Made by a program: the position numbers and the translations under genes | Notes under the pieces: generated by a model | Seen by the model: only the letters and a program-made list of their open reading frames with translations | What the model was told of the DNA's origin: nothing | The model's database searches: none | Part shown: positions 781-52,465 of the stretch, piece after piece | Layout: each line of letters starts with the position of its first letter | Numbering within the stretch: the first letter of the stretch is position 1 | From: Fimbriosthenelais zetlandica | Lineage: Eukaryota | DNA length: 64,000 nucleotides | Direction of reading: 5' to 3' | Assembly (NCBI GenBank): GCA_977030845.1 | Contig: OZ365113.1 | Coordinates: forward strand, 28,954,001 to 29,018,000

Positions 781-1042
781 CTGTAGAACAGATAAACAGG
801 CAGTTATTTAATAGGCACATAAACAGGGAGATATTTAACAGGCACACCTGTCTGTATAACAGATAAACAGGAATATATTTAAGAGGCACAGCAATCTGTA
901 CAGCAGATAAACAGGGAGATATTTAACAGGCACAGCTGTCTGTACAGCAGATAAACAGGGAGATATTTAACAGGCACAGCTGTCTGTACAGCAGATAAAC
1001 AGGGAGTTATTAAACAGGCACAGCTGTCTGTAGAACAGATAA
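766..1042. repeat. 44-bp minisatellite spanning the VAC14 intron 12/exon 13 junction
   Basis: Unit aacaggcacagctgtctgtacagcagataaacagggagatattt; copies start at 766, 810 (partial), 837, 881, 925, 969 and 1013 (partial). Confidence 0.95.
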
Positions 1043-4502: not shown

Positions 4503-4609
4503 CCACTGACTGACTGTGAGTGATCAATATGTTGATCATACTGGAGTAGTCCACTCTGGACGGTGATTTCTGGATGCCCTGGAGGAACTCCCCCAACACT
4601 GCCTCACAC
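4503..4609 (-). CDS. VAC14: VAC14 coding exon 7
   Basis: ttttacag|G CEAVLGEFLQGIQKSPSRVDYSSMINILITHSQSV G|gtaagt; 107 nt, follows an 8540-nt intron. Confidence 0.95.
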
Positions 4610-5402
4610 CTGTAAAATATTAATATTAAAAAATTTAATATTTTCGAATAAAGCTTTGATAATTATGTGACAAGCGTTTATATCGTTGACCTGGATTGGA
4701 TGGTCATTGGTCATTGGTATCACAGATTTGTTCACACATAGCCCCAAGTTTCAGTCAAAACATAAAGTAGTGACAATAGATTACAATGCACCGGAGGCGA
4801 CCGACAACTTGTCCAAAATACATTCACAAAATATAGATCAACTCATATTTCTTTTTAGTTTTGAATAACAAAGATTGTTTACAATGATTTAGGGTCTACA
4901 ACACGCTCAAGCAATAAACTTCCTAGTTATAATGCAGTTAGAAGTCACTCTCCTAGTACAATGATATATTCATTAATATATTTTATATTCATAAACATAA
5001 CCATGTAGACAAGGTTATTCCATTAAGCAGGATGTGCGAATAAAAGGTTACCAGAAGTATAATAGATAATTTGAATGATATATAGTTCATAATAACCATT
5101 AATTTGCCCTGGATTCGAGGTCAAGTCGAGATCTTGACCCAGCGTCAATTATTATGTAATAGATTAAGATGCAGCATACAGGGAACACAAATAGTAGATT
5201 AGTTAGAAGTGGTTCATGAATTGAAATGGTCCTTCCCCGATCTGTTTAAATATTTTAATGAGAGCTAGTCAGAATAAATGTTGTATATCTTTGTTAAAAT
5301 GAGGCAGTTACTATTATTAGATATTTCCAATCTTTAATAATTTAACTCGATTTATAATATATTGGTACAGTACTACAATATACGGAATCAATGAGTGCAT
5401 TA

Positions 5403-5489
5403 ATGGATAAATGAATGGATGAATGAATGAATGAATGAATGAATGAATAGATGAATGAATGAACGAATGAATGAATGAATGGATGAATG
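5403..5489. repeat. (GAAT)n/(GGAT)n microsatellite
   Basis: Direct inspection. Confidence 0.95.
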
Positions 5490-5809
5490 GGGGGGGGGGG
5501 ATTTGTGATTGATGGCAAGAAGTAGAGAAAAGGATGAAAGGAAGGACATAGTCATAGGACAGGGAAAACGAGGGGAAAAGAAGGGATTACAGGGGAATAA
5601 AGGAAAATAATGAATAATTGACCCATTGAAAAGAAAAGAAGCATCAACAATATCTCATGTGTATACTCTCCACTCTCTGAAAACTTTATTTTTTCTATAC
5701 AAAATAACAATCACACGGATTAAAAAAGAACTCTCCAAAATTCACATGAAGCACACAACGCAAATCACTGAATCACTGTCCTTTCAACTCACATGCTAAA
5801 ACAGTAATC

Positions 5810-6388
5810 TTACTTTGCCCAGACGGAGTCTTGAATGTCACACGAGACTTTGCCTTGATCGAGGGAGAGCACATAAGTACTTTTTCCTTTAAACACAAGT
5901 ACTTGATGAGAGTTCTTCATGGTATAGCTATAACCCCAAACATATGGACCATTTAACAGTTTCAATGCCTTCTGGTCCAAGACTCTCTCTTCAACTTCTC
6001 CCTCTTTCTCGGTGAAGAAAATGTCCTTAGTTTTAGTCTCTAAGAATGGTAATTCCGCTTCAAATTTCTTCTCATCCAAAAATACATTTTGTAATCCATT
6101 GGATTCACAGAAATCTGCTTCACCGTGGTCTCTTAGTACCGTTTCTTCAATATTGTCCGTTAGAAACCCCATCTGGGCCATGTTTTGGGTATGTGATCTG
6201 TTTTTCAAAGGAAAAGCCTCCAAAGAAATTTCCTTGATTCTGCCTTTCCTTCTCTGATTGGCCTCCAAAGGGAAGTCCTGGGGGGCCATTGTAAATAATT
6301 GTCTTTGTGTGTTTTCTGCCTTCAGACAATTTCCATGTTGGTTAAGGCGCTTAATTTTGTGTATAATAGTATCTGAATCGTCAGTCAA
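5810..6388 (-). CDS. Orphan intronless ORF, 192 codons (unknown; possibly viral/mobile-element derived)
   Basis: Second-longest ORF in the track, K/E-rich and protein-like (…LNGPYVWGYSYTMK…). I recognise no family motif. It begins at TTG, with a short ATG-led ORF (6456-6385) overlapping in another frame. Confidence 0.45.
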   Translation of the reverse strand: MTDDSDTIIHKIKRLNQHGNCLKAENTQRQLFTMAPQDFPLEANQRRKGRIKEISLEAFPLKNRSHTQNMAQMGFLTDNIEETVLRDHGEADFCESNGLQNVFLDEKKFEAELPFLETKTKDIFFTEKEGEVEERVLDQKALKLLNGPYVWGYSYTMKNSHQVLVFKGKSTYVLSLDQGKVSCDIQDSVWAK

Positions 6389-6483
6389 TGAATAATTTTA
6401 TGTACAATCTCACGGCAATGACCAACGTAATGGCAACCAGTCAAGGCAAATTCCATATTTGATCCGACTTAGTTTATCTTATG

Positions 6484-6585
6484 TTACCGGCGCCAAGTTT
6501 CTTCATGTTTGCATCTTTTTCCATCAAGCCAAATAACTAAAATGGTGAATATTCCAAGCAGTGTCAGCAGCACGAACACTGCCAT
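6484..6585 (-). CDS. Putative single-TM microprotein S2 (33 aa)
   Basis: MAVFVLLTLLGIFTILVIWLDGKRCKHEETWRR*; start context AAAATATGG (A at -3, G at +4). Confidence 0.4.
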   Translation of the reverse strand: MAVFVLLTLLGIFTILVIWLDGKRCKHEETWRR

Positions 6586-6914
6586 ATTTTGTTGGGCGTC
6601 AAAATTTTACAATTAAATGTGCACAAACTTATTTTTCAATCGTAGTATATCGAGGGAATTCAATATATTTTTTATAAATATTACTAGCCACTATATCACA
6701 CTTTTACACAGTCAGGTCAAAAATCATGAAAAATATGTAGACATGTATAGTCTTTAGGAAACAATGATGCGTTAAATTCCAATCCGTATTTTCAGTTCAT
6801 ATCAAAAATGACATCATCTGTATTCCAGTTCCAGTGTCCGTTGAATTTATCCAAGTCTGTACCAGGATTTTTGAGCTGGGGAGATAATTAGAGATAATGG
6901 TTCATAGATAATTA

Positions 6915-7031
6915 TCATACCTCTTCGTATTCCGCTCTGGCTCTGCGTCCTTCAAGCCAGCATTGGTAGAAAGCTAGACCAACCATAACGCCAACAATGA
7001 CAAAAGTTACTGTCAAAATCACCACTACCAT
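6915..7031 (-). CDS. Putative single-TM microprotein S1 (38 aa)
   Basis: MVVVILTVTFVIVGVMVGLAFYQCWLEGRRARAEYEEV*; start context ATTATGG (A at -3, G at +4). Confidence 0.4.
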   Translation of the reverse strand: MVVVILTVTFVIVGVMVGLAFYQCWLEGRRARAEYEEV

Positions 7032-7429
7032 AATTACCTTTAAACACCCTATTCTAATGTTCAGTTAATTATTAACTTGATTTTTGTAGTGGTTTCGCTC
7101 TCCTTCCGACCTCACAGGTTGTGAGTCTTTTATCAGTTGTGAAGCAAATTGATGTCAAAATGAAGTACAAGTAATGAATTTGAATTTATATCTCAATGTT
7201 TATCAATGATATGGATGGGTATTTGAGTAGGTCCAATGTCTAAGCTGCCATATTCGGGCAACTACACTCTCACTCTGTTGTCCATGAAAATATCCTGAAT
7301 ATTTCAATTTTCATCCAAAGTAATATTTCCTTTGAATACAGCGCTCTTCAAGCCATTGTGAAATTGGCTAGATAACAAAAATCCCATGAAAGATAATATT
7401 ATATTGATTAGCCTAATGTGTCGACCAAG

Positions 7430-7690
7430 TGGGAATTTCTCCAGTGGTCCAGACTGGTCCAGAGTGTGTGGGCACAAGTGTAGGTCCTCTCAGCTGGTGT
7501 AGAGGTATTTGTGTTATAGGTTATAATCTATGGTATATGGAATATGTCTCATGCTCTCAGAAGCAGCTTGCCACACATGTAATGCACCAGAGAGAAAACG
7601 TGCGGCCTTTTAAGCGAACTAGTGGTCAATTCATTGTTCTAGACCAATGGGCTCTTAGCTTAAGGTATATATTTAGAGTATGATTAAGGG
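7430..7690 (-). mobile_element. Decayed LINE 3'-end fragment
   Basis: The minus frame gives KAARFLSGALHVWQAASESMR with stops, resembling the C-terminal 'CYAGATEWNALP' segment of the adjacent LINE ORF. Confidence 0.35.
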
Positions 7691-8265
7691 GATGCTATTG
7701 GTCGGTGTAAGGGTGGGTGTGAATGCTTGTGTAGGGGTGGGGCGGGGGGGGGGGGGGGTGTTTGTTATGTGTGGATTCGGGGTAAGAGTGACAGTGGATA
7801 GGATGCTGAAGGGGTGTGGCTTAGCGTGCATCTATAAATGGCGTATTGTTTTTACGCCTTTGTATGCCTTGATGTTGTTATGTTTTCTTTCATCCAGCCA
7901 AAGTTTGTGTTTAATGTATTCCTTAATTATTCTTTCCCTTTCATCTATTCCACCAATAGGTCTCATCTTTAAATTCTTCCTCCTCGATTTTCTGCCTTTT
8001 CAGTGATTTAAAAAAAATAAATTTTCATAATTTCCAGGTATTATTATACAGCCGATATCTTGTGCAATATTTGTTTTTTGTTTTTGAAGCATACTGAGGA
8101 TTCATACACAATAATAAGTTTTTCAAGCCTAGTTTTGAATAATTGAATATTGCGTCATGGGATTTCCGGTAAGGATGATAATACATGTAGTGCATTAATT
8201 AAATACAAGTAGGCATTGAGAGAAAGCTAAACAGGTAGGGGTGGGGTTTAGATTAAGAAGTTATA

Positions 8266-10645
8266 TTTTTTTTTTTTTTTTTTTTATTTAGAATATTTAT
8301 ACAGCCAAATTAAGAGGAGTTTGCTAGGCTCACGGGGCAAAAGTATTATTACCAGTCATGATTTTCAGCCTAGGGCTGTGTTAGTGCAGGAACTTAAGCT
8401 AAGATGAGATGAAAGGAGTGCAGTGATAGAGAGAGGAGAGGAGAAAGAGACAGATTTTATAAAGGTAAAGAATGAGATATATATAAGATATCTGTAAACA
8501 CACATATACTATATATATACACAATATTATGCAGCATAGGCGAAGGTGTTATTGGAGTATGTTTTGTAGTAGTGAGTGTTTGTTGGGTGGGTGTCATGTG
8601 TGATGTGTTTTGAAGTTTTTAGCCCTGCTATGGGTTCTGATTAGTAGTTTGGGACTGGGAGCGGGGTTGGTGGGGGAGCTGTGCTAGGCTTGGGATTGGG
8701 CTTGTTGGCGAGTGGCAGGTGGGCCAGTCATACCCAGGTGCTTCTTTAAATTCCTCTTGAATGAGTTGGGGTCTTTTAGTTCTTTAAGACTGTTTGGGAG
8801 GGCGTTCCATTCAGTAGCTCCAGCATAGCATGGTGAGCGTTTGAGTAGCTCAGTTTTGGGATGTGGGATGGGGAGGTTCATGCCACATGTTTGGCGTGTG
8901 GTTCTGGTGACCTTCTCAACTTTCTTTTGGGAGTGGAGGGTAGCTCTTTTATGCATGAGGGTGAGAGTGAGATATTGTCTGCGTGTGGAGAGGGGGGCAA
9001 TATTAAATTTTGAAAGGGTTTCTTTAATACTGGTGTGTTTGCGTGTCAGGGTGGCAATTCTGACTGCACGGTTTTGCAATCTATCTAGTTTGAGTAGGTT
9101 TGCTTGGGTTGTATAAGAAAAGAATGCGCAGTTGTAGTCTAGGACAGGGAGAATAGTGCTTTTATATATGGTTATGGCGGTATTTATGTCAATTTGGGGT
9201 CGTATTTTGGCTAGGATGGCAAGTTTGGCATTTACAGATTTTAGGGTTGCTTTGATTTGGTCCGAGCAACTAAGTTTGCAATCGATTGTCGAGCCTAGGT
9301 ACTTGTAGGAATCGACTACTTCTAGTGGGGTGTGTTCAAGTATGAGGGGTGGAGGGGGGGATATCCGAGCTCTGGGTCTGTAGAGTGGCATTGTTTTGGA
9401 TTTGCTTATGTTGATTGTGAGTTTGTTTATTTGACAATAGGTGGATAGGTTGTTCAGTGCTGACTGGAGTACATTGTGTGTCTCAGCACGGTTTTTTTTG
9501 GCACAGTAAATAACGGTGTCATCGGCATATAGCTGGACAGGGGTGTTGGGTAGGTGGGAGGGGAGGTCATTTATGTAAATGAGGAAGAGAAGTGGTCCAA
9601 GAATAGACCCTTGTGGGACACCAGTTTTGATTGGGAGTGGTGGTGAGATGGTGTCAAGATAGCGGACCTGTGAGCTCCTATTTGTGAGGTAACTTGAGAA
9701 CCAGTTTAGTGTGGTAGGGTCAGGGGTGGTTTCAGCTAGTTTTCTAAGTAGGATGGGGTGGTTAAGGGTATCAAAGGCTTTTTTAAAGTCGATGAATACG
9801 GCAGTTGGGTGGAGGGCAATGTCTAAGGGATTTGTAAGGTCATCTAATAGGTCACAAAGGGCCTGGTGTGTAGATCTACCTTTCCTGAAGCCATGTTGTT
9901 TGGGATCCAGAAAGTTAAGGGATTCGAGATGTGCGGAGGTTTGCTTGTGGACAAATCTTTCTAGGACTTTACCAGGGGTTGGGAGGAGGGAGATTGGTCG
10001 GAGGTCTGAGGGGGATGAGGGTGAGTTAATTTTGGGAAGTGGGGTAATTATTGCCTTCTTCCAGGCATCGGGGAAGATCCCGGTTTTGATGGAGGTGTTG
10101 ATGGTATGGGTGAATTCAGGAATAAGAAATAGTAGGGCATCCTTTAGTATCTTGGTGGGGAGCTCAGGGATACCAGAAGATTTGGTGGAGGACAGTTTAA
10201 GGACTTCTTTCCGGACGTCATCAGTCGTGACCGTACCGAGCTCAAGTGGGATATGTTTTGTAGGAGTGGAGGGTTTTGGTGGGGGAGGGGTGTGAGGAGT
10301 GGGTGGGATTTTTTCGGCCAATGAGGCCCCGATGTTAGCGAAAAATTTATTTATGTATTCGGCAGTACCGTCTTGGGGGATTTCTGAGCCATCAGTCTCA
10401 GTGAGGTGGAGCGTATTAGAGGATTTTCCATTACCTAATATGTTGTTCAGTTCTTTCCAGAATTTCTTTGGGTCGTCTTTATTATTGTCAGCCAAGTTTT
10501 TGAAGAATTCAGACCTAGTATGTGATACTAGATTTTTGGCTTTATTACGGAGGGCTCGGGCCATGTCCCACTGGTCAGGGTTGTTGGATTTTTTGGCTTT
10601 AAGAATGAAATAATCCTTATCTTGGAGGGTGTTAATGAGATCATC
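8266..10645 (-). mobile_element. 5'-truncated non-LTR retrotransposon (CR1/L2/Jockey-group LINE) with poly(A) tail
   Basis: Uninterrupted RT ORF, ~400-nt 3' UTR, then an A20 tail at 8285-8266. No endonuclease domain and no clear TSD were found. Confidence 0.93.
8684..10564 (-). CDS. LINE reverse transcriptase ORF2, C-terminal part (open frame extends upstream to at least ~10640)
   Basis: Motifs RPISLLPTPGKVLE, QHGFRKGRST, VFIDFKKAFDTLNH, GVPQGSILGPLLFLIYINDL, YADDT and YKYLG; 626 aa without a stop. Confidence 0.97.
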   Translation of the reverse strand: MARALRNKAKNLVSHTRSEFFKNLADNNKDDPKKFWKELNNILGNGKSSNTLHLTETDGSEIPQDGTAEYINKFFANIGASLAEKIPPTPHTPPPPKPSTPTKHIPLELGTVTTDDVRKEVLKLSSTKSSGIPELPTKILKDALLFLIPEFTHTINTSIKTGIFPDAWKKAIITPLPKINSPSSPSDLRPISLLPTPGKVLERFVHKQTSAHLESLNFLDPKQHGFRKGRSTHQALCDLLDDLTNPLDIALHPTAVFIDFKKAFDTLNHPILLRKLAETTPDPTTLNWFSSYLTNRSSQVRYLDTISPPLPIKTGVPQGSILGPLLFLIYINDLPSHLPNTPVQLYADDTVIYCAKKNRAETHNVLQSALNNLSTYCQINKLTINISKSKTMPLYRPRARISPPPPLILEHTPLEVVDSYKYLGSTIDCKLSCSDQIKATLKSVNAKLAILAKIRPQIDINTAITIYKSTILPVLDYNCAFFSYTTQANLLKLDRLQNRAVRIATLTRKHTSIKETLSKFNIAPLSTRRQYLTLTLMHKRATLHSQKKVEKVTRTTRQTCGMNLPIPHPKTELLKRSPCYAGATEWNALPNSLKELKDPNSFKRNLKKHLGMTGPPATRQQAQSQA

Positions 10646-11490
10646 TTGACAATGACATTCACCAATAGGACAATAACGAGCATTGGGAGAAAGAACAAAG
10701 CTAAAAATAAAGGCAACAAAACTAACGCCAAACAGAGAAAAAGCTTGAATACCTTAGGGTCTAAATTTATCCTGTTACGCCTTTGGAGTGACACGGGAAC
10801 AATTGGAAGCATCTATGGAGCTTTATATTTTTCAAACACTTAATTCATCAATAGTAGGCCTATGCCAAAGCTGTCTATTTTTATATGTACAATGGACACT
10901 ACTTTGGGCCAATATTTCAGTAATATTTTGGAAATCATCTATTTTTGTAATAAATCAGAATGTATCTCATGATTATTTTGGGACTATTTTTTAAGTAGGC
11001 ATAATTTACGTTTCAATAGCATCGTAGGACTCAGTTTTCAAATTAGTTTGCGAGTCGTTGATGAAAATATGACACATTATATTGCATGTTGGCATGGGAT
11101 GTGAGAGACATCTGTGAGCGACAAATAAACCAAAAAACAAAATGGCGGCATTTAGAACAAGCTGCTTTACACTACGAGATAAAAGGACGTAAAGGAGCCA
11201 GGTGGTTACCTTGACATCCTCGGCCAAGAGGACGTCAGAACGTGACAGGTCATGACGATAGTGACGTCACTATCTGACATGGTCAGCGCGTCTGAGAGCA
11301 CTGGCCATTTATGTCTGGTGCATATTAGAGTTTTATATACAGTAAAACCTCTGATTTAGGTGAACAGTGGACACTGTAAATTGTGTAATCAAGAAATACT
11401 TTCATAATTATAGTGAACAGTGTTTAGAAGTTGATAGAGAAATGTCACATAAGATCTTCTCAAATCCAGGTTTATATAGTATTTATTTGT

Positions 11491-11529
11491 TCCAATGCAT
11501 TTCGGCCGTAGGGGGCCTTCATCAGGGAG
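11491..11529 (-). ncRNA. Minimal type I hammerhead ribozyme motif of Penelope-like-element type, CpG-decayed
   Basis: Minus strand reads TCC-CTGATGA-A-GGCC-CCCTAC-GGCC-GAAA-TGCA-TT-GGA: core boxes, 4-bp helix II, TCC/GGA helix I and palindromic ATGCAT helix III. AATAAA follows within 10 nt. Confidence 0.65.
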
Positions 11530-12928
11530 TGTTAAGAAGTTCTTGTTATTCTATTGATTATTCTATTGATATGGATCATTTCACACATTTGCTCCGTCTC
11601 CAGACTATCCATTACACAGAGGATTTACTGTAGTTATAATCTTGGCAAGATTTTAGATGCCCTAGAAATTCTGCACTTAATTACATTAAATTGAAATTTT
11701 AAAAGAGCGCTCCTAAAATCTCAGTAGATATGTGATGAGAAATGGAGTGCAGATGGAGATGAATTTCACAAATAAAGACATTCATTTCTGTTCAGTTTTC
11801 TTTAAAAAAAAAATTACTAAAAACATACATTGCATGAATGGACTTGATTCAGTGAACACCCATAGCGGTGAATCTCCTCAAAAAGGGTGCCAAAGAGACA
11901 GGCTTCACTATGGAATGAAACGACTAGACAGCCCCGCGCCAAAACAAGCATCACAGACGAAAATATCAATTTAAAAAAAATACCAACAAAACAATTTAAA
12001 AAAAAGGATGACAAGGAAAAAATACATGAAAGACTAGACTACTCTTAGCCTAGGAAATATGCCGCCTTTTAGTTAATGGGTGGAAAAGTGGTCTGAAACT
12101 TCTCACAAAGACTGTCAAGGGGTGTGGAAATTTCCGCATTGATAAATTATTGGTCATTATTGCTATGACAGAATTCGAAATGACAGGAGTTAAAACTCAG
12201 TTTAAAACCCCATCTTATTTTTTTAAATGTATAAATGCTGAATTAAATTAATTAAAAAAGGAATTATACACAGAAAAACCTCCATTAGAGAACACCTCTG
12301 ATTAAACAACTGCATACACTTTCCCACAGTCCCAAGTATGTAGCCCCTAAGGAACACCTTATAGCATTTTTCCGTAGGCCTACTATACAGAGATTTTATT
12401 GCAGCAGTGCCGCAAAACAAAAAGATAAGTCTTCCCGGATAGACTATGGAAGTATTCCAGGATAGATTATGAGTTTATGAAGCAATAGCCATCGTTCCCA
12501 CATAGTAAGCTCCACCAGTCATTCTTATCAGCAATGGCGCGAAAATCTTTGGCTTGGATTTACAAATAAAAAAACTTCTGTCAACAAATATCAACGTTTG
12601 GGTCGAGTGCGCGAGAACTGGCTGGTCTCAAAACGAAATCTCCAGCCAATATTTTGGAGAAAAGTTGAGTAAAAATTGACAACAAAGGGGACATATGGTG
12701 GTAAGATCAGTGGTGCCCTCCTACTGAGATTTACTCACACTAGACTGGACCGGAAGACGATGGGGGCATGTCGTTAAGATGTTGTGACGTCACATTATTC
12801 TGGGTCATTTAACGTCACACTTTTTGGGTCTCTAATGACCTTTTGAAGGTCAATAAATTATTTCCGTTCCCATCATGTCTTAGTGCTTGGTTAGCTTAGA
12901 AGTCCGGTAGTATGTAGACTATGCTAAG

Positions 12929-13100
12929 TTGGATGGATGGATGGATGGATGGATGGATGGCGGGATGGATGGATGGATGAATGGATGAAAGGGTCAATGG
13001 ATGGATGTATGGATAGATGGAAGGATGAATGGATGAATAAATGTGTGGATGAATGAAAGGGGAGAATGAGTGGATGGATGTGTGGATGGATGCATGGATG
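12929..13100. repeat. (GGAT)n degenerate microsatellite
   Basis: Direct inspection; it starts ~50 nt after the VAC14 exon 6 donor. Confidence 0.95.
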
Positions 13101-13149
13101 GATTGAGGAATATGAGTTGAGATGAGAAACTGAAGTAAGTTGTACTCAC

Positions 13150-45680: not shown

Positions 45681-45824
45681 NNNNNNNNNNNNNNNNNNNN
45701 NNNNNNNNNNNNNNNNNNNNNNNNNNNNNNNNNNNNNNNNNNNNNNNNNNNNNNNNNNNNNNNNNNNNNNNNNNNNNNNNNNNNNNNNNNNNNNNNNNNN
45801 NNNNNNNNNNNNNNNNNNNNNNNN
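45681..45824. other. Assembly gap (144 N)
   Basis: Run of n flanked by pyrimidine-rich low-complexity DNA. Confidence 1.
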
Positions 45825-51540: not shown

Positions 51541-52160
51541 CCAGGGCATCGCATTAGAATGAATCAATTACTATTGATTAGAATTGATTAGAATTGCTGA
51601 CCATCCATAACGAGTCAAGTGACAAACTTTGAATTTCTATTTTTGAAATAATCCGTTTTGCTGGATTCTCCCGAAGAAAATCTCCACACAGCTGAAGAAA
51701 AGGGCATTAAATGTATCAAATGCCAGGAAAAGACGTCCTGTAATGACACAATATTAAATGAAAAATGGTTTTAAAAACCCAGAAAATTGAAAAAATGAAA
51801 GAACAAAGAAAACATAACCTTCTTGGTCATATGATCTACAAAGAGACAAAACGTCGTTACTAATGCATTCAAAATGTCAGTAAAACCTGGACTGGCTGTA
51901 ACTCGTCCACTGGGAGGTCTTCATGAGATACTCATTCCTGAGTCACTCACCTAGTGCATTACAAGCTTGTGTTAGGAGAGGACACGGTCCCCAGACCAAC
52001 AAAAGATAAAATGATCATTCAGGTCACTTCTAACCTTACCACTCCTTGCATGTCAAGGCCAAGATCATTGCTTAGTTTCTTGTAACAGTACAGAATTCCA
52101 ATTTATAGCCAATGAGAAGAAACTCCCTGAATTAACTGACACTCAAACCTAAGGAGCCAA

Positions 52161-52465
52161 CACCCTGAATGTTTTGGTGCTCTAACCAGCTGAGCTAACC
52201 TCCTGAATGAGCTGGTGCTTTAGCCAACTGAGCTACCACCCTGAATGAGCTAGTGTTCTAACCAGCTGAGCTAACACCCTGAATGTCTTGGTGCTCTAAC
52301 CAACTGAGCTAACATCCCGGATGAGCTGGTTCTTTAACCAGCTGAGCTAACCTCCTGAATGAGCTAGTGTTCTAACCAGCTGCGTTAACTCCCTGAAAGA
52401 GCTGGTGCTCTAACCAGCTGAGCTAACCTCCTGCATGAGCTGGTACTCTAACCAACTGAGCTAAA
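52161..52465 (-). repeat. 38-bp minisatellite x8 derived from a tRNA/SINE A-box
   Basis: The minus-strand unit is ~GGTTAGCTCAGCTGGTTAGAGCACCAGCTCATTCAGGA, in 8 copies. It is the same unit family as 42570-42650. Confidence 0.9.

What the first reader, a model, noticed from the sequence alone, without database searches (positions are those of the whole stretch)
5810..7430. Virus-like cassette of tightly packed, co-oriented, intronless ORFs inside VAC14 intron 6
On the minus strand the order is: a stop-riddled frame (~7430-7080); S1, a TM microprotein (7031-6915); 10 nt later a ~70-codon frame broken by isolated stops (MNHYL*LSPQLKNPGTDLDKFNGHWNWNTDDVIFDMN*KYGLEFNASLFPKDYTCLHIFHDF*); S2, a TM microprotein (6585-6484); and 27 nt later MEFALTGCHYVGHCREIVHKIIH running into a 192-codon ORF. 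Three ATGs have A at -3 and G at +4, and two share AAATATGG. This polycistron-like packing is unlike the host genes here and matches no LINE/LTR/DNA-transposase motif I recognise. It suggests a partly decayed endogenous viral element or the cargo of an undescribed mobile element (inference). A same-strand nested gene is the alternative.
Basis: partly seen in the sequence, partly recalled or inferred. Interest (0 to 1): 0.7.

Follow-up and report, generated by a model that had tools for sequence, protein, structure and literature searches.

The report
Hidden microprotein gene cluster inside VAC14
Inside one intron of an animal's VAC14 gene sits a single-copy cluster with two related reading frames for tiny membrane proteins and one for a 159-residue protein of an unnamed family, likely kept working by the host rather than a dying virus remnant, though its origin and its expression are untested.

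Summary
Partly confirmed. Three ORFs are real. U starts at MAPQDF (6289), not at MEFAL; it is 159 aa and has two database relatives that keep the first six residues and a C-terminal ~55-aa domain ending WAK. S1 and S2 rank first and second of 444 small ORFs in the window for hydrophobicity and are paralogues. The upstream stop-riddled frame is likely a decayed copy of U. The MNHYL and MEFAL frames do not rise above chance. The cluster is single-copy; no element ends, viral hallmark gene, family or fold match was found. U, S1 and S2 carry 0 stops in 230 codons beside 10 in 154 in the decayed copy, which points to host selection. Best reading (0.5): a host-maintained nested transcription unit built by local duplication, ending at AATAAA 5690. 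New rival (0.22): U's stop lies in a strong phase-2 splice donor that is in frame with VAC14 exon 7, so U may be an alternative first exon. Passive viral fossil: 0.18. No RNA data could be examined.

The parts
4610..13149 (-). VAC14 intron 6 (8540 nt, phase 2), the host intron
7037..7498 (-). P1: stop-riddled frame, likely a decayed copy of U (10 stops in 154 codons, only 3 in the first 118; no start codon at the matching place)
7185..7190 (-). TATAAA, 159 nt before the S1 start (candidate promoter, weak)
7074..7085 (-). junction motif 1 (A5-T-n-AAGTT), about 49 nt before the S1 start
   Evidence: suggestive only
7032..7040 (-). strong donor-like site (99.7th percentile of GT sites) at the matched end of P1, just before the S1 ATG
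6915..7031 (-). S1: 38-aa ORF, N-terminal hydrophobic segment then WLEGRR tail; predicted single-pass membrane microprotein
6684..6905 (-). MNHYL frame (P2): not above chance; coding status unsupported
6671..6676 (-). TATAAA, 91 nt before the S2 start (candidate promoter, weak)
6626..6636 (-). junction motif 2, about 46 nt before the S2 start
   Evidence: suggestive only
6484..6585 (-). S2: 33-aa ORF, paralogue of S1 (WLDGKR tail); predicted single-pass membrane microprotein
6385..6456 (-). MEFAL: 23-codon ORF with strong start context; at most an upstream ORF
5810..6289 (-). U: 159-aa ORF of an unnamed family; conserved N-terminal MAPQDF, variable acidic middle, C-terminal helix plus four-strand meander ending WAK
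5808..5816 (-). donor-like site containing U's stop codon (99.0th percentile; phase 2, same as intron 6)
5682..5714 (-). acceptor-like site (98.1th percentile, first exon base 5694), junction motif 3 and the only AATAAA (5690-5685) of the cluster, 120 nt after U's stop
4503..4609 (-). VAC14 exon 7, the in-frame splice partner in the alternative-first-exon reading
8267..10760 (-). young 5'-truncated LINE with poly(A) end; unrelated neighbour

Best explanation
The region is a single-copy cluster of three open reading frames (S1, S2, U) plus one likely decayed copy of U, likely built by local tandem duplication and likely kept by host selection as a nested transcription unit inside VAC14 intron 6. 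Inferred working: promoters inside the intron (TATAAA at 7190 and 6676) start overlapping transcripts that share one 3' end at AATAAA 5690; S1 and S2 are each the first strong start on their transcript and make single-pass membrane microproteins (lumenal N-terminus, basic cytosolic tail); U, which lies behind several strong starts, would be reached by re-initiation, by its own start site or by a 5' UTR splice. U is predicted to be a two-ended adaptor: a fixed N-terminal six-residue motif, an acidic linker of free length (total 106, 159 or 257 aa in the three members) and a small helix/beta-meander domain. Shown: ORFs, homology, paralogy, copy number, motifs. Inferred: transcription, translation route, selection, adaptor role. 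Whether the module came from a virus or arose in the host is open.
For: U relatives P0004 (E 8.7e-20) and P0007 (E 1.4e-5) keep both ends, with 26 invariant columns across 4 rows. S1/S2 rank 1 and 2 of 444 and align from the junction motif through the tail, a score reached by 1 of 1000 shuffles and 2 of 1779 window pieces. A-3/G+4 at S1, S2 and U against 7% background. 0 stops in 230 codons against 10 in 154 (Fisher 9e-5) or 3 in 118 (Fisher 0.038) in the adjacent U-like copy. No AATAAA in 1950 nt of the cluster where other VAC14 introns have 1.85 per kb, then one 120 nt after U's stop followed by G/T-rich DNA and no genomic poly(A). No strong acceptor upstream of S1, S2 or U (best 94.7th percentile at 6372). 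Single copy with a working positive control (versus 58). No longer fused form among 7991 candidates of 451-2000 aa (weak by the tool's own note).
Against: No expression data were examined. The selection argument assumes that P1 is a U copy (look-elsewhere p about 0.01-0.06; the family profile does not detect it, and P0004/P0007 do not resemble it) and that it decayed in place; the three open ORFs were also picked for being open. The source organisms and genomic context of the two relatives are unknown, so they could be viral. U's stop lies in a donor-like site matched by 0.9% of 1581 random stops, which this reading leaves as coincidence or as a composite exon. Strong start contexts upstream make U hard to reach by scanning, and no TURBS-like motif was found. 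The C-terminal model is only moderate (pLDDT 66, pTM 0.47).
Confidence: 0.5

Rival explanations
1. U (and perhaps S2) is an alternative first coding exon of VAC14. A promoter in intron 6 starts a transcript that splices from the donor at 5813 to exon 7, replacing the first 233 residues (the Fab1/PIKfyve-binding HEAT repeats) with the U domain while keeping the Fig4-binding half. Unspliced read-through to AATAAA 5690 would give free U (composite exon). A variant is a two-exon U gene using the acceptor at 5694 (119-nt intron, 12 more residues).
For: Donor score 8.5, 99.0th percentile of 3174 GT sites; 0.9% of 1581 random stops score as high. Phase 2 equals intron 6, and the frame stays open through exons 7-13 (503 codons, 0 stops). 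The U-like copy P1 also ends at a 99.7th-percentile donor at nearly the same distance from its matched start (461 against 476 nt). S1 and S2 stops also sit in weaker donor-like sites (5.2, 3.8). A phase-2 donor read on genomic DNA usually gives an immediate stop (follows from the GTRAG consensus), so the shared WAK-stop end of the relatives does not prove a true C-terminus. PMC2600653 (passages read): HEAT repeats 1-10 bind Fab1p and Vac7p, repeats 10-21 bind Fig4p.
Against: Noticed after the fact, among many features looked at. The splice models rest on 12-13 host sites. No longer U-containing protein was found (weak). S1's donor is phase 0 and gives no fusion. The 3' part of P1 has 6 stops in 33 codons, so its frame at the donor is not reliable. 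No paper with Vac14 + isoform + alternative promoter was listed.
Confidence: 0.22
2. A passive endogenous viral fragment: an accessory-gene block of an unknown DNA virus or negative-strand RNA virus, with viroporin-like S1/S2 and gene-junction signals, integrated once and now decaying.
For: Tight intronless packing, small membrane ORFs, duplicated accessory-like genes and no match to named families are all features described for rhabdovirus accessory regions (PMC4334499, section 9 and passages read). The motif A5-T-n-AAGTT occurs 3 times in 128 kb (both strands), all on the coding strand near the cluster's gene junctions, and 0 times in 70.8 kb of other loci. Only two relative clusters exist among billions of proteins, both on short unnamed contigs (3343 and 2162 nt).
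Against: No hallmark gene. No relative in IMG/VR in 5 scans (one weak hit was off-frame in a phage tail gene), PHROGs or phage records. The unbiased test of the junction motif is not significant (12 of 200 shuffles, 29 of 201 genomic triples), and the first copy lies inside the U-like frame. Open U/S1/S2 beside a broken copy does not fit uniform neutral decay. S1/S2 lack the aromatic N-terminal domain and central helix of rhabdovirus class IA viroporins. P0007's middle is a repeat expansion, more typical of DNA genomes (inference).
Confidence: 0.18
3. Cargo of an undescribed mobile element, or a 3' transduction by the neighbouring LINE.
For: The intron holds other insertions, including a young LINE about 770 nt upstream on the same strand.
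Against: Single copy in DNA, protein and pattern searches. The best terminal inverted-repeat candidate is matched by 80% of 577 background pieces. The LINE ends in its own poly(A) and 2 of 2 other copies examined have unrelated 3' flanks. No poly(A) after the cluster.
Confidence: 0.05
4. Chance ORFs in intron DNA.
For: True for the MNHYL and MEFAL frames on present evidence.
Against: U has relatives at E 8.7e-20; S1/S2 ranks, paralogy and start contexts.
Confidence: 0.02

Closest known systems
Rhabdovirus accessory-gene blocks (ephemerovirus alpha1-alpha2, hapavirus PMIP genes; PMC4334499, section 9 and passages read)
   Same: Small membrane ORF followed by a soluble ORF of unknown function, expansion by duplication, no database homologues, possible junction signals with short A runs.
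   Different: No N, P, M, G or L gene or fragment; S1/S2 have an N-terminal helix without aromatic ectodomain; no TURBS; junction motif not significant in an unbiased test; ORFs look maintained in the host.
Polycistronic microprotein loci of animals (sarcolamban, tarsal-less/pri, hemotin/stannin; recalled, not read)
   Same: Paralogous short single-pass ORFs in tandem with strong eukaryotic start contexts.
   Different: No sequence membership (best Pfam hint Hemotin E 0.26, below cut-off); here they sit on the same strand inside an intron of a housekeeping gene and precede a larger orphan ORF.
Composite terminal exons / alternative first exons (IgM secreted-versus-membrane type; recalled)
   Same: Donor site directly followed by an in-frame stop and a downstream intronic AATAAA; frame compatible with the next host exon.
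   Different: Here the exon would be a first exon carrying a non-host-like domain; splicing is untested.
Domesticated endogenous viral genes (general class; recalled)
   Same: Single copy, intronless, open frames beside decayed neighbours.
   Different: No viral donor family identified.

Membership tests
Endogenous mononegavirus/rhabdovirus element | Homology to N, P, M, G or L, or to a named accessory protein | tested here: not met
   No Pfam, PHROGs, NCBIfam, PDB-sequence or IMG/VR match; sensitivity to remote accessory proteins is low
Endogenous mononegavirus/rhabdovirus element | Conserved gene-end/gene-start junction between transcription units | tested here: inconclusive
   Motif 3 times in the cluster only, but 12 of 200 shuffles and 29 of 201 genomic triples do as well
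Endogenous mononegavirus/rhabdovirus element | TURBS (UGGGA/UGAGA) before consecutive ORFs | tested here: not met
   None within 90 nt of the P2, MEFAL or U starts
Class IA viroporin (rhabdovirus type) | Central helix, aromatic N-terminal domain, highly basic C-terminal domain | tested here: not met
   Helix starts at residue 1-2; only a short mixed-charge tail (definition from PMC4334499)
Class IA viroporin (rhabdovirus type) | Oligomeric pore activity | not testable with these tools
   Needs assay
Polinton/adintovirus or other DNA-virus insertion | pPolB, integrase, capsid, ATPase or protease genes; terminal inverted repeats | tested here: not met
   Only RT ORF in the intron belongs to the LINE; no repeats above chance
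Any known fold | Structural match of U's C-terminal domain | tested here: inconclusive
   No Foldseek hit at E <= 0.001; best VIA Z 5.2, rmsd 6.8, 64 aligned; model pLDDT 66
Mobile-element cargo | Dispersed copies, ends, target-site duplication | tested here: not met
   1 match in each DNA and protein search; pattern hits at control level and none extending; control LINE 422 candidates
Element with an alternative genetic code (TGA sense) | Frames open specifically when TGA is not a stop | tested here: not met
   Coverage p 0.70 and 0.78 against 1000 shuffles; TGA is abundant in all phases
Nested host gene / polycistronic microprotein locus | Open frames, eukaryotic start contexts, poly(A) signal | tested here: met
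Nested host gene / polycistronic microprotein locus | Transcript and translation; orthologues at the same locus | not testable with these tools
   No runs could be laid; no relatives' genomes held for this window
Alternative first exon of VAC14 | Start codon, donor site, frame compatible with exon 7 | tested here: met
Alternative first exon of VAC14 | Junction-spanning transcript | not testable with these tools
   Needs RNA-seq or RT-PCR

The most novel reading that the evidence does not exclude
A captured, possibly viral, gene module was duplicated inside VAC14 intron 6 and now serves as a set of alternative first exons: U or the membrane anchor S2 is spliced onto VAC14 exon 7, swapping out the PIKfyve-binding repeats and producing re-targeted or membrane-anchored scaffolds that keep FIG4, while intronic polyadenylation releases free U and microproteins from the same locus.
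Probability: 0.15. Interest if true: 0.8.

Novelty: new variant of a known kind. Interest (0 to 1): 0.46.

Why it matters
It gives an unnamed three-member protein family and a pair of paralogous membrane microproteins that annotation would miss, hidden on the same strand inside an essential trafficking gene. If host-maintained, it is a compact case of new genes growing by duplication inside an intron, with a decayed copy as an internal clock. If the splice to exon 7 is used, it would be a lineage-specific rewiring of the PIKfyve-VAC14-FIG4 lipid-signalling scaffold. One stranded RNA-seq library and one sister genome would separate the readings.

Tried and rejected
TGA read as a sense codon: rejected. 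Terminal inverted repeats: chance. LINE transduction: rejected. MEFAL as a paralogue of a P0007 segment: not significant (p 0.34). P1 versus P2 paralogy: not significant (p 0.25); family profile versus P1 and versus the S1+P2 frame: probability 0.2% and 0.1%. IMG/VR hit L012: off-frame inside a phage tail gene, rejected. P0005 and P0006 (2 of the 4 hits): repeat proteins matched through many weak stretches, dropped before alignment. Single-sequence word search with the 195-aa frame: nothing among 139 candidates. ESM Atlas: no usable hit for U or P0004. JGI metagenomes, GTDB genomes, phage records, Rfam: nothing. Fold searches: no listed family stands out; this excludes none. RNA fold upstream of U: z -0.06. 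Sequencing runs: none was listed; no RNA holder listed, which is no evidence either way. A 45-nt intron joining S1 to P2: acceptor not in the top 12% and far shorter than the shortest host intron here (216 nt). Paper searches (listings and abstract starts only) showed no description of a nested gene or alternative promoter in VAC14; subscription papers and supplements were not seen. Earlier scan notes: nothing on this locus or sequence.

Full report
Setting. The window is G000:C19:28954001-29018000 of a 447-Mb animal assembly. Thirteen exons on the minus strand read as one 578-codon open frame, with Vac14_Fab1_bd in exons 2-3 and Vac14_Fig4_bd in exon 13. Intron 6 runs 13149-4610 and is phase 2. 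It holds a young LINE (8267-10760; RVT_1; 422 candidates) that ends in its own poly(A); the 2 other copies examined have unrelated flanks.

What is real. The long frame is 195 codons stop to stop. Searching its 159-aa part from the ATG at 6289 against 1.84 billion representatives gave 4 hits. Two (P0005, P0006) are repeat proteins and were dropped. P0004 (106 aa, Logan) and P0007 (257 aa, ENA) share the first six residues MAPQDF and a C-terminal domain ending WAK. A profile search found only these two clusters among 1893 candidates of 58-450 aa and nothing among 7991 longer ones (weak). So U is a gene of a tiny unnamed family, and MEFAL is not its start. S1 and S2 rank first and second for hydrophobicity among 444 ATG ORFs of 25-70 aa in the window, share a WL[ED]G[RK]R tail right after the helix (E 3e-4), and align at DNA level from an upstream motif through the tail (1 of 1000 shuffles, 2 of 1779 window pieces). 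S1, S2, MEFAL and U have A-3/G+4, which 7% of ATGs have.

What is not. The MNHYL frame has 4 stops in 73 codons against 4.1 expected and no codon periodicity (p 0.15); MEFAL has p 0.10. Reading TGA as sense does not open the region beyond chance.

The upstream frame. P1 (7498-7037) has codon periodicity in the named frame (p 0.004; 0.011 for best of three), gives the best non-self local score to U in the whole six-frame window (48, next 47), and a global score reached by 8 of 17,292 background pieces and 3 of 1000 shuffles. After allowing for the search over the upstream region this is p about 0.01-0.06, and the family profile does not detect it. I take it as a likely decayed U copy (about 0.75). 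It has 10 stops in 154 codons, 3 in the first 118.

Copy number and ends. DNA, protein and motif searches of the genome return only this locus; the 10 other pattern loci are at control level and none extends into a U- or S-like ORF. No terminal repeats stand above chance. There is no genomic poly(A).

Viral tests. No match in Pfam, PHROGs, NCBIfam, PDB sequences, phage records, JGI metagenomes, GTDB or IMG/VR; the one weak IMG/VR hit is off-frame in a phage tail gene. The C-terminal domain models as a helix plus four-strand meander (pLDDT 66) with no clear fold match. A motif A5-T-n-AAGTT occurs 3 times in 128 kb, all in the cluster, two of them 49 and 46 nt before the S1 and S2 starts; an unbiased three-way test is not significant (12 of 200, 29 of 201). 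Rhabdovirus accessory blocks (PMC4334499; section 9 and selected passages read) are the nearest architectural likeness, but S1/S2 do not meet that paper's viroporin description and no TURBS is present.

Selection. U, S1 and S2 have 0 stops in 230 codons; the adjacent U-like copy has 10 in 154 (Fisher 9e-5) or 3 in 118 for its best part (0.038). If P1 decayed in place, its neighbours were protected, which means host function. The caveat is that these ORFs were picked for being open and that P1 could have been broken before insertion.

Transcript signals. The cluster has no AATAAA over 1950 nt, against 1.85 per kb in other VAC14 introns, and then one 120 nt after U's stop with G/T-rich DNA behind it. 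The two TATAAA in the cluster lie 159 and 91 nt before S1 and S2 (the count is no more than chance). This fits overlapping transcripts with a shared 3' end. U sits behind several strong starts, so it needs re-initiation, its own start site, or a splice such as 7037 to 6372; none is shown.

The splice rival. U's stop codon lies inside a donor-like site at the 99.0th percentile of GT sites, matched by 0.9% of 1581 random stops. It is phase 2 like intron 6, and the frame stays open through exons 7-13. P1's matched end also has a 99.7th-percentile donor. A genomic read-through of such a donor gives an immediate stop, so the shared WAK end of the relatives cannot decide. If used, the splice would replace residues 1-233, which include the Fab1-binding region, and keep the Fig4-binding half (PMC2600653, passages read). 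The splice models rest on 12-13 sites and the pattern was noticed after the fact.

Verdict. A real, single-copy, likely host-maintained cluster of an unnamed 159-aa protein and two paralogous membrane microproteins, grown by local duplication in VAC14 intron 6. Nested transcription unit 0.5; alternative first exon 0.22; passive viral fossil 0.18; mobile cargo 0.05; chance 0.02. The origin is open because the DNA around the two relatives could not be seen and no RNA could be examined. The names sarcolamban, tarsal-less, hemotin/stannin and the IgM composite exon are recalled and come from no call, apart from the weak Hemotin hint. Interest 0.46.

Noticed in passing
window 8267-10760 (-): 5'-truncated LINE with a 689-codon open RT frame and poly(A) end; 422 candidates in the genome, many 99-100% identical, so a recently active family.
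   Followed up: partly
window 792-1042 (-): 5.2 copies of a 44-nt unit that appears to repeat the acceptor and first bases of VAC14 exon 13, giving tandem decoy 3' splice sites.
   Followed up: no
window 17746 (-) and 18370 (+): A second gene starts head-to-head with VAC14, about 620 nt between start codons; its first exon had no Pfam match.
   Followed up: partly
window 5385-5489 and 12930-13103: Related ATTC/ATCC microsatellites lie near both ends of the inserted material in intron 6, perhaps one old tract split by later insertions.
   Followed up: no
window 5552-5644 (-): A 30-codon hydrophobic ORF starts about 43 nt after the third junction motif, like S1 and S2 after theirs, but has a poor start context, no charged tail and ranks only 12th of 444.
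   Followed up: partly
P0004 and P0008: Two variants differing at one residue are both listed with a longest contig of 3343 nt, which would fit a molecule of defined length or a unique stretch between repeats.
   Followed up: no
window 52154-52464: Tandem array of a 38-nt unit, 8.2 copies.
   Followed up: no
window 45681-45824: Run of 144 N.
   Followed up: no
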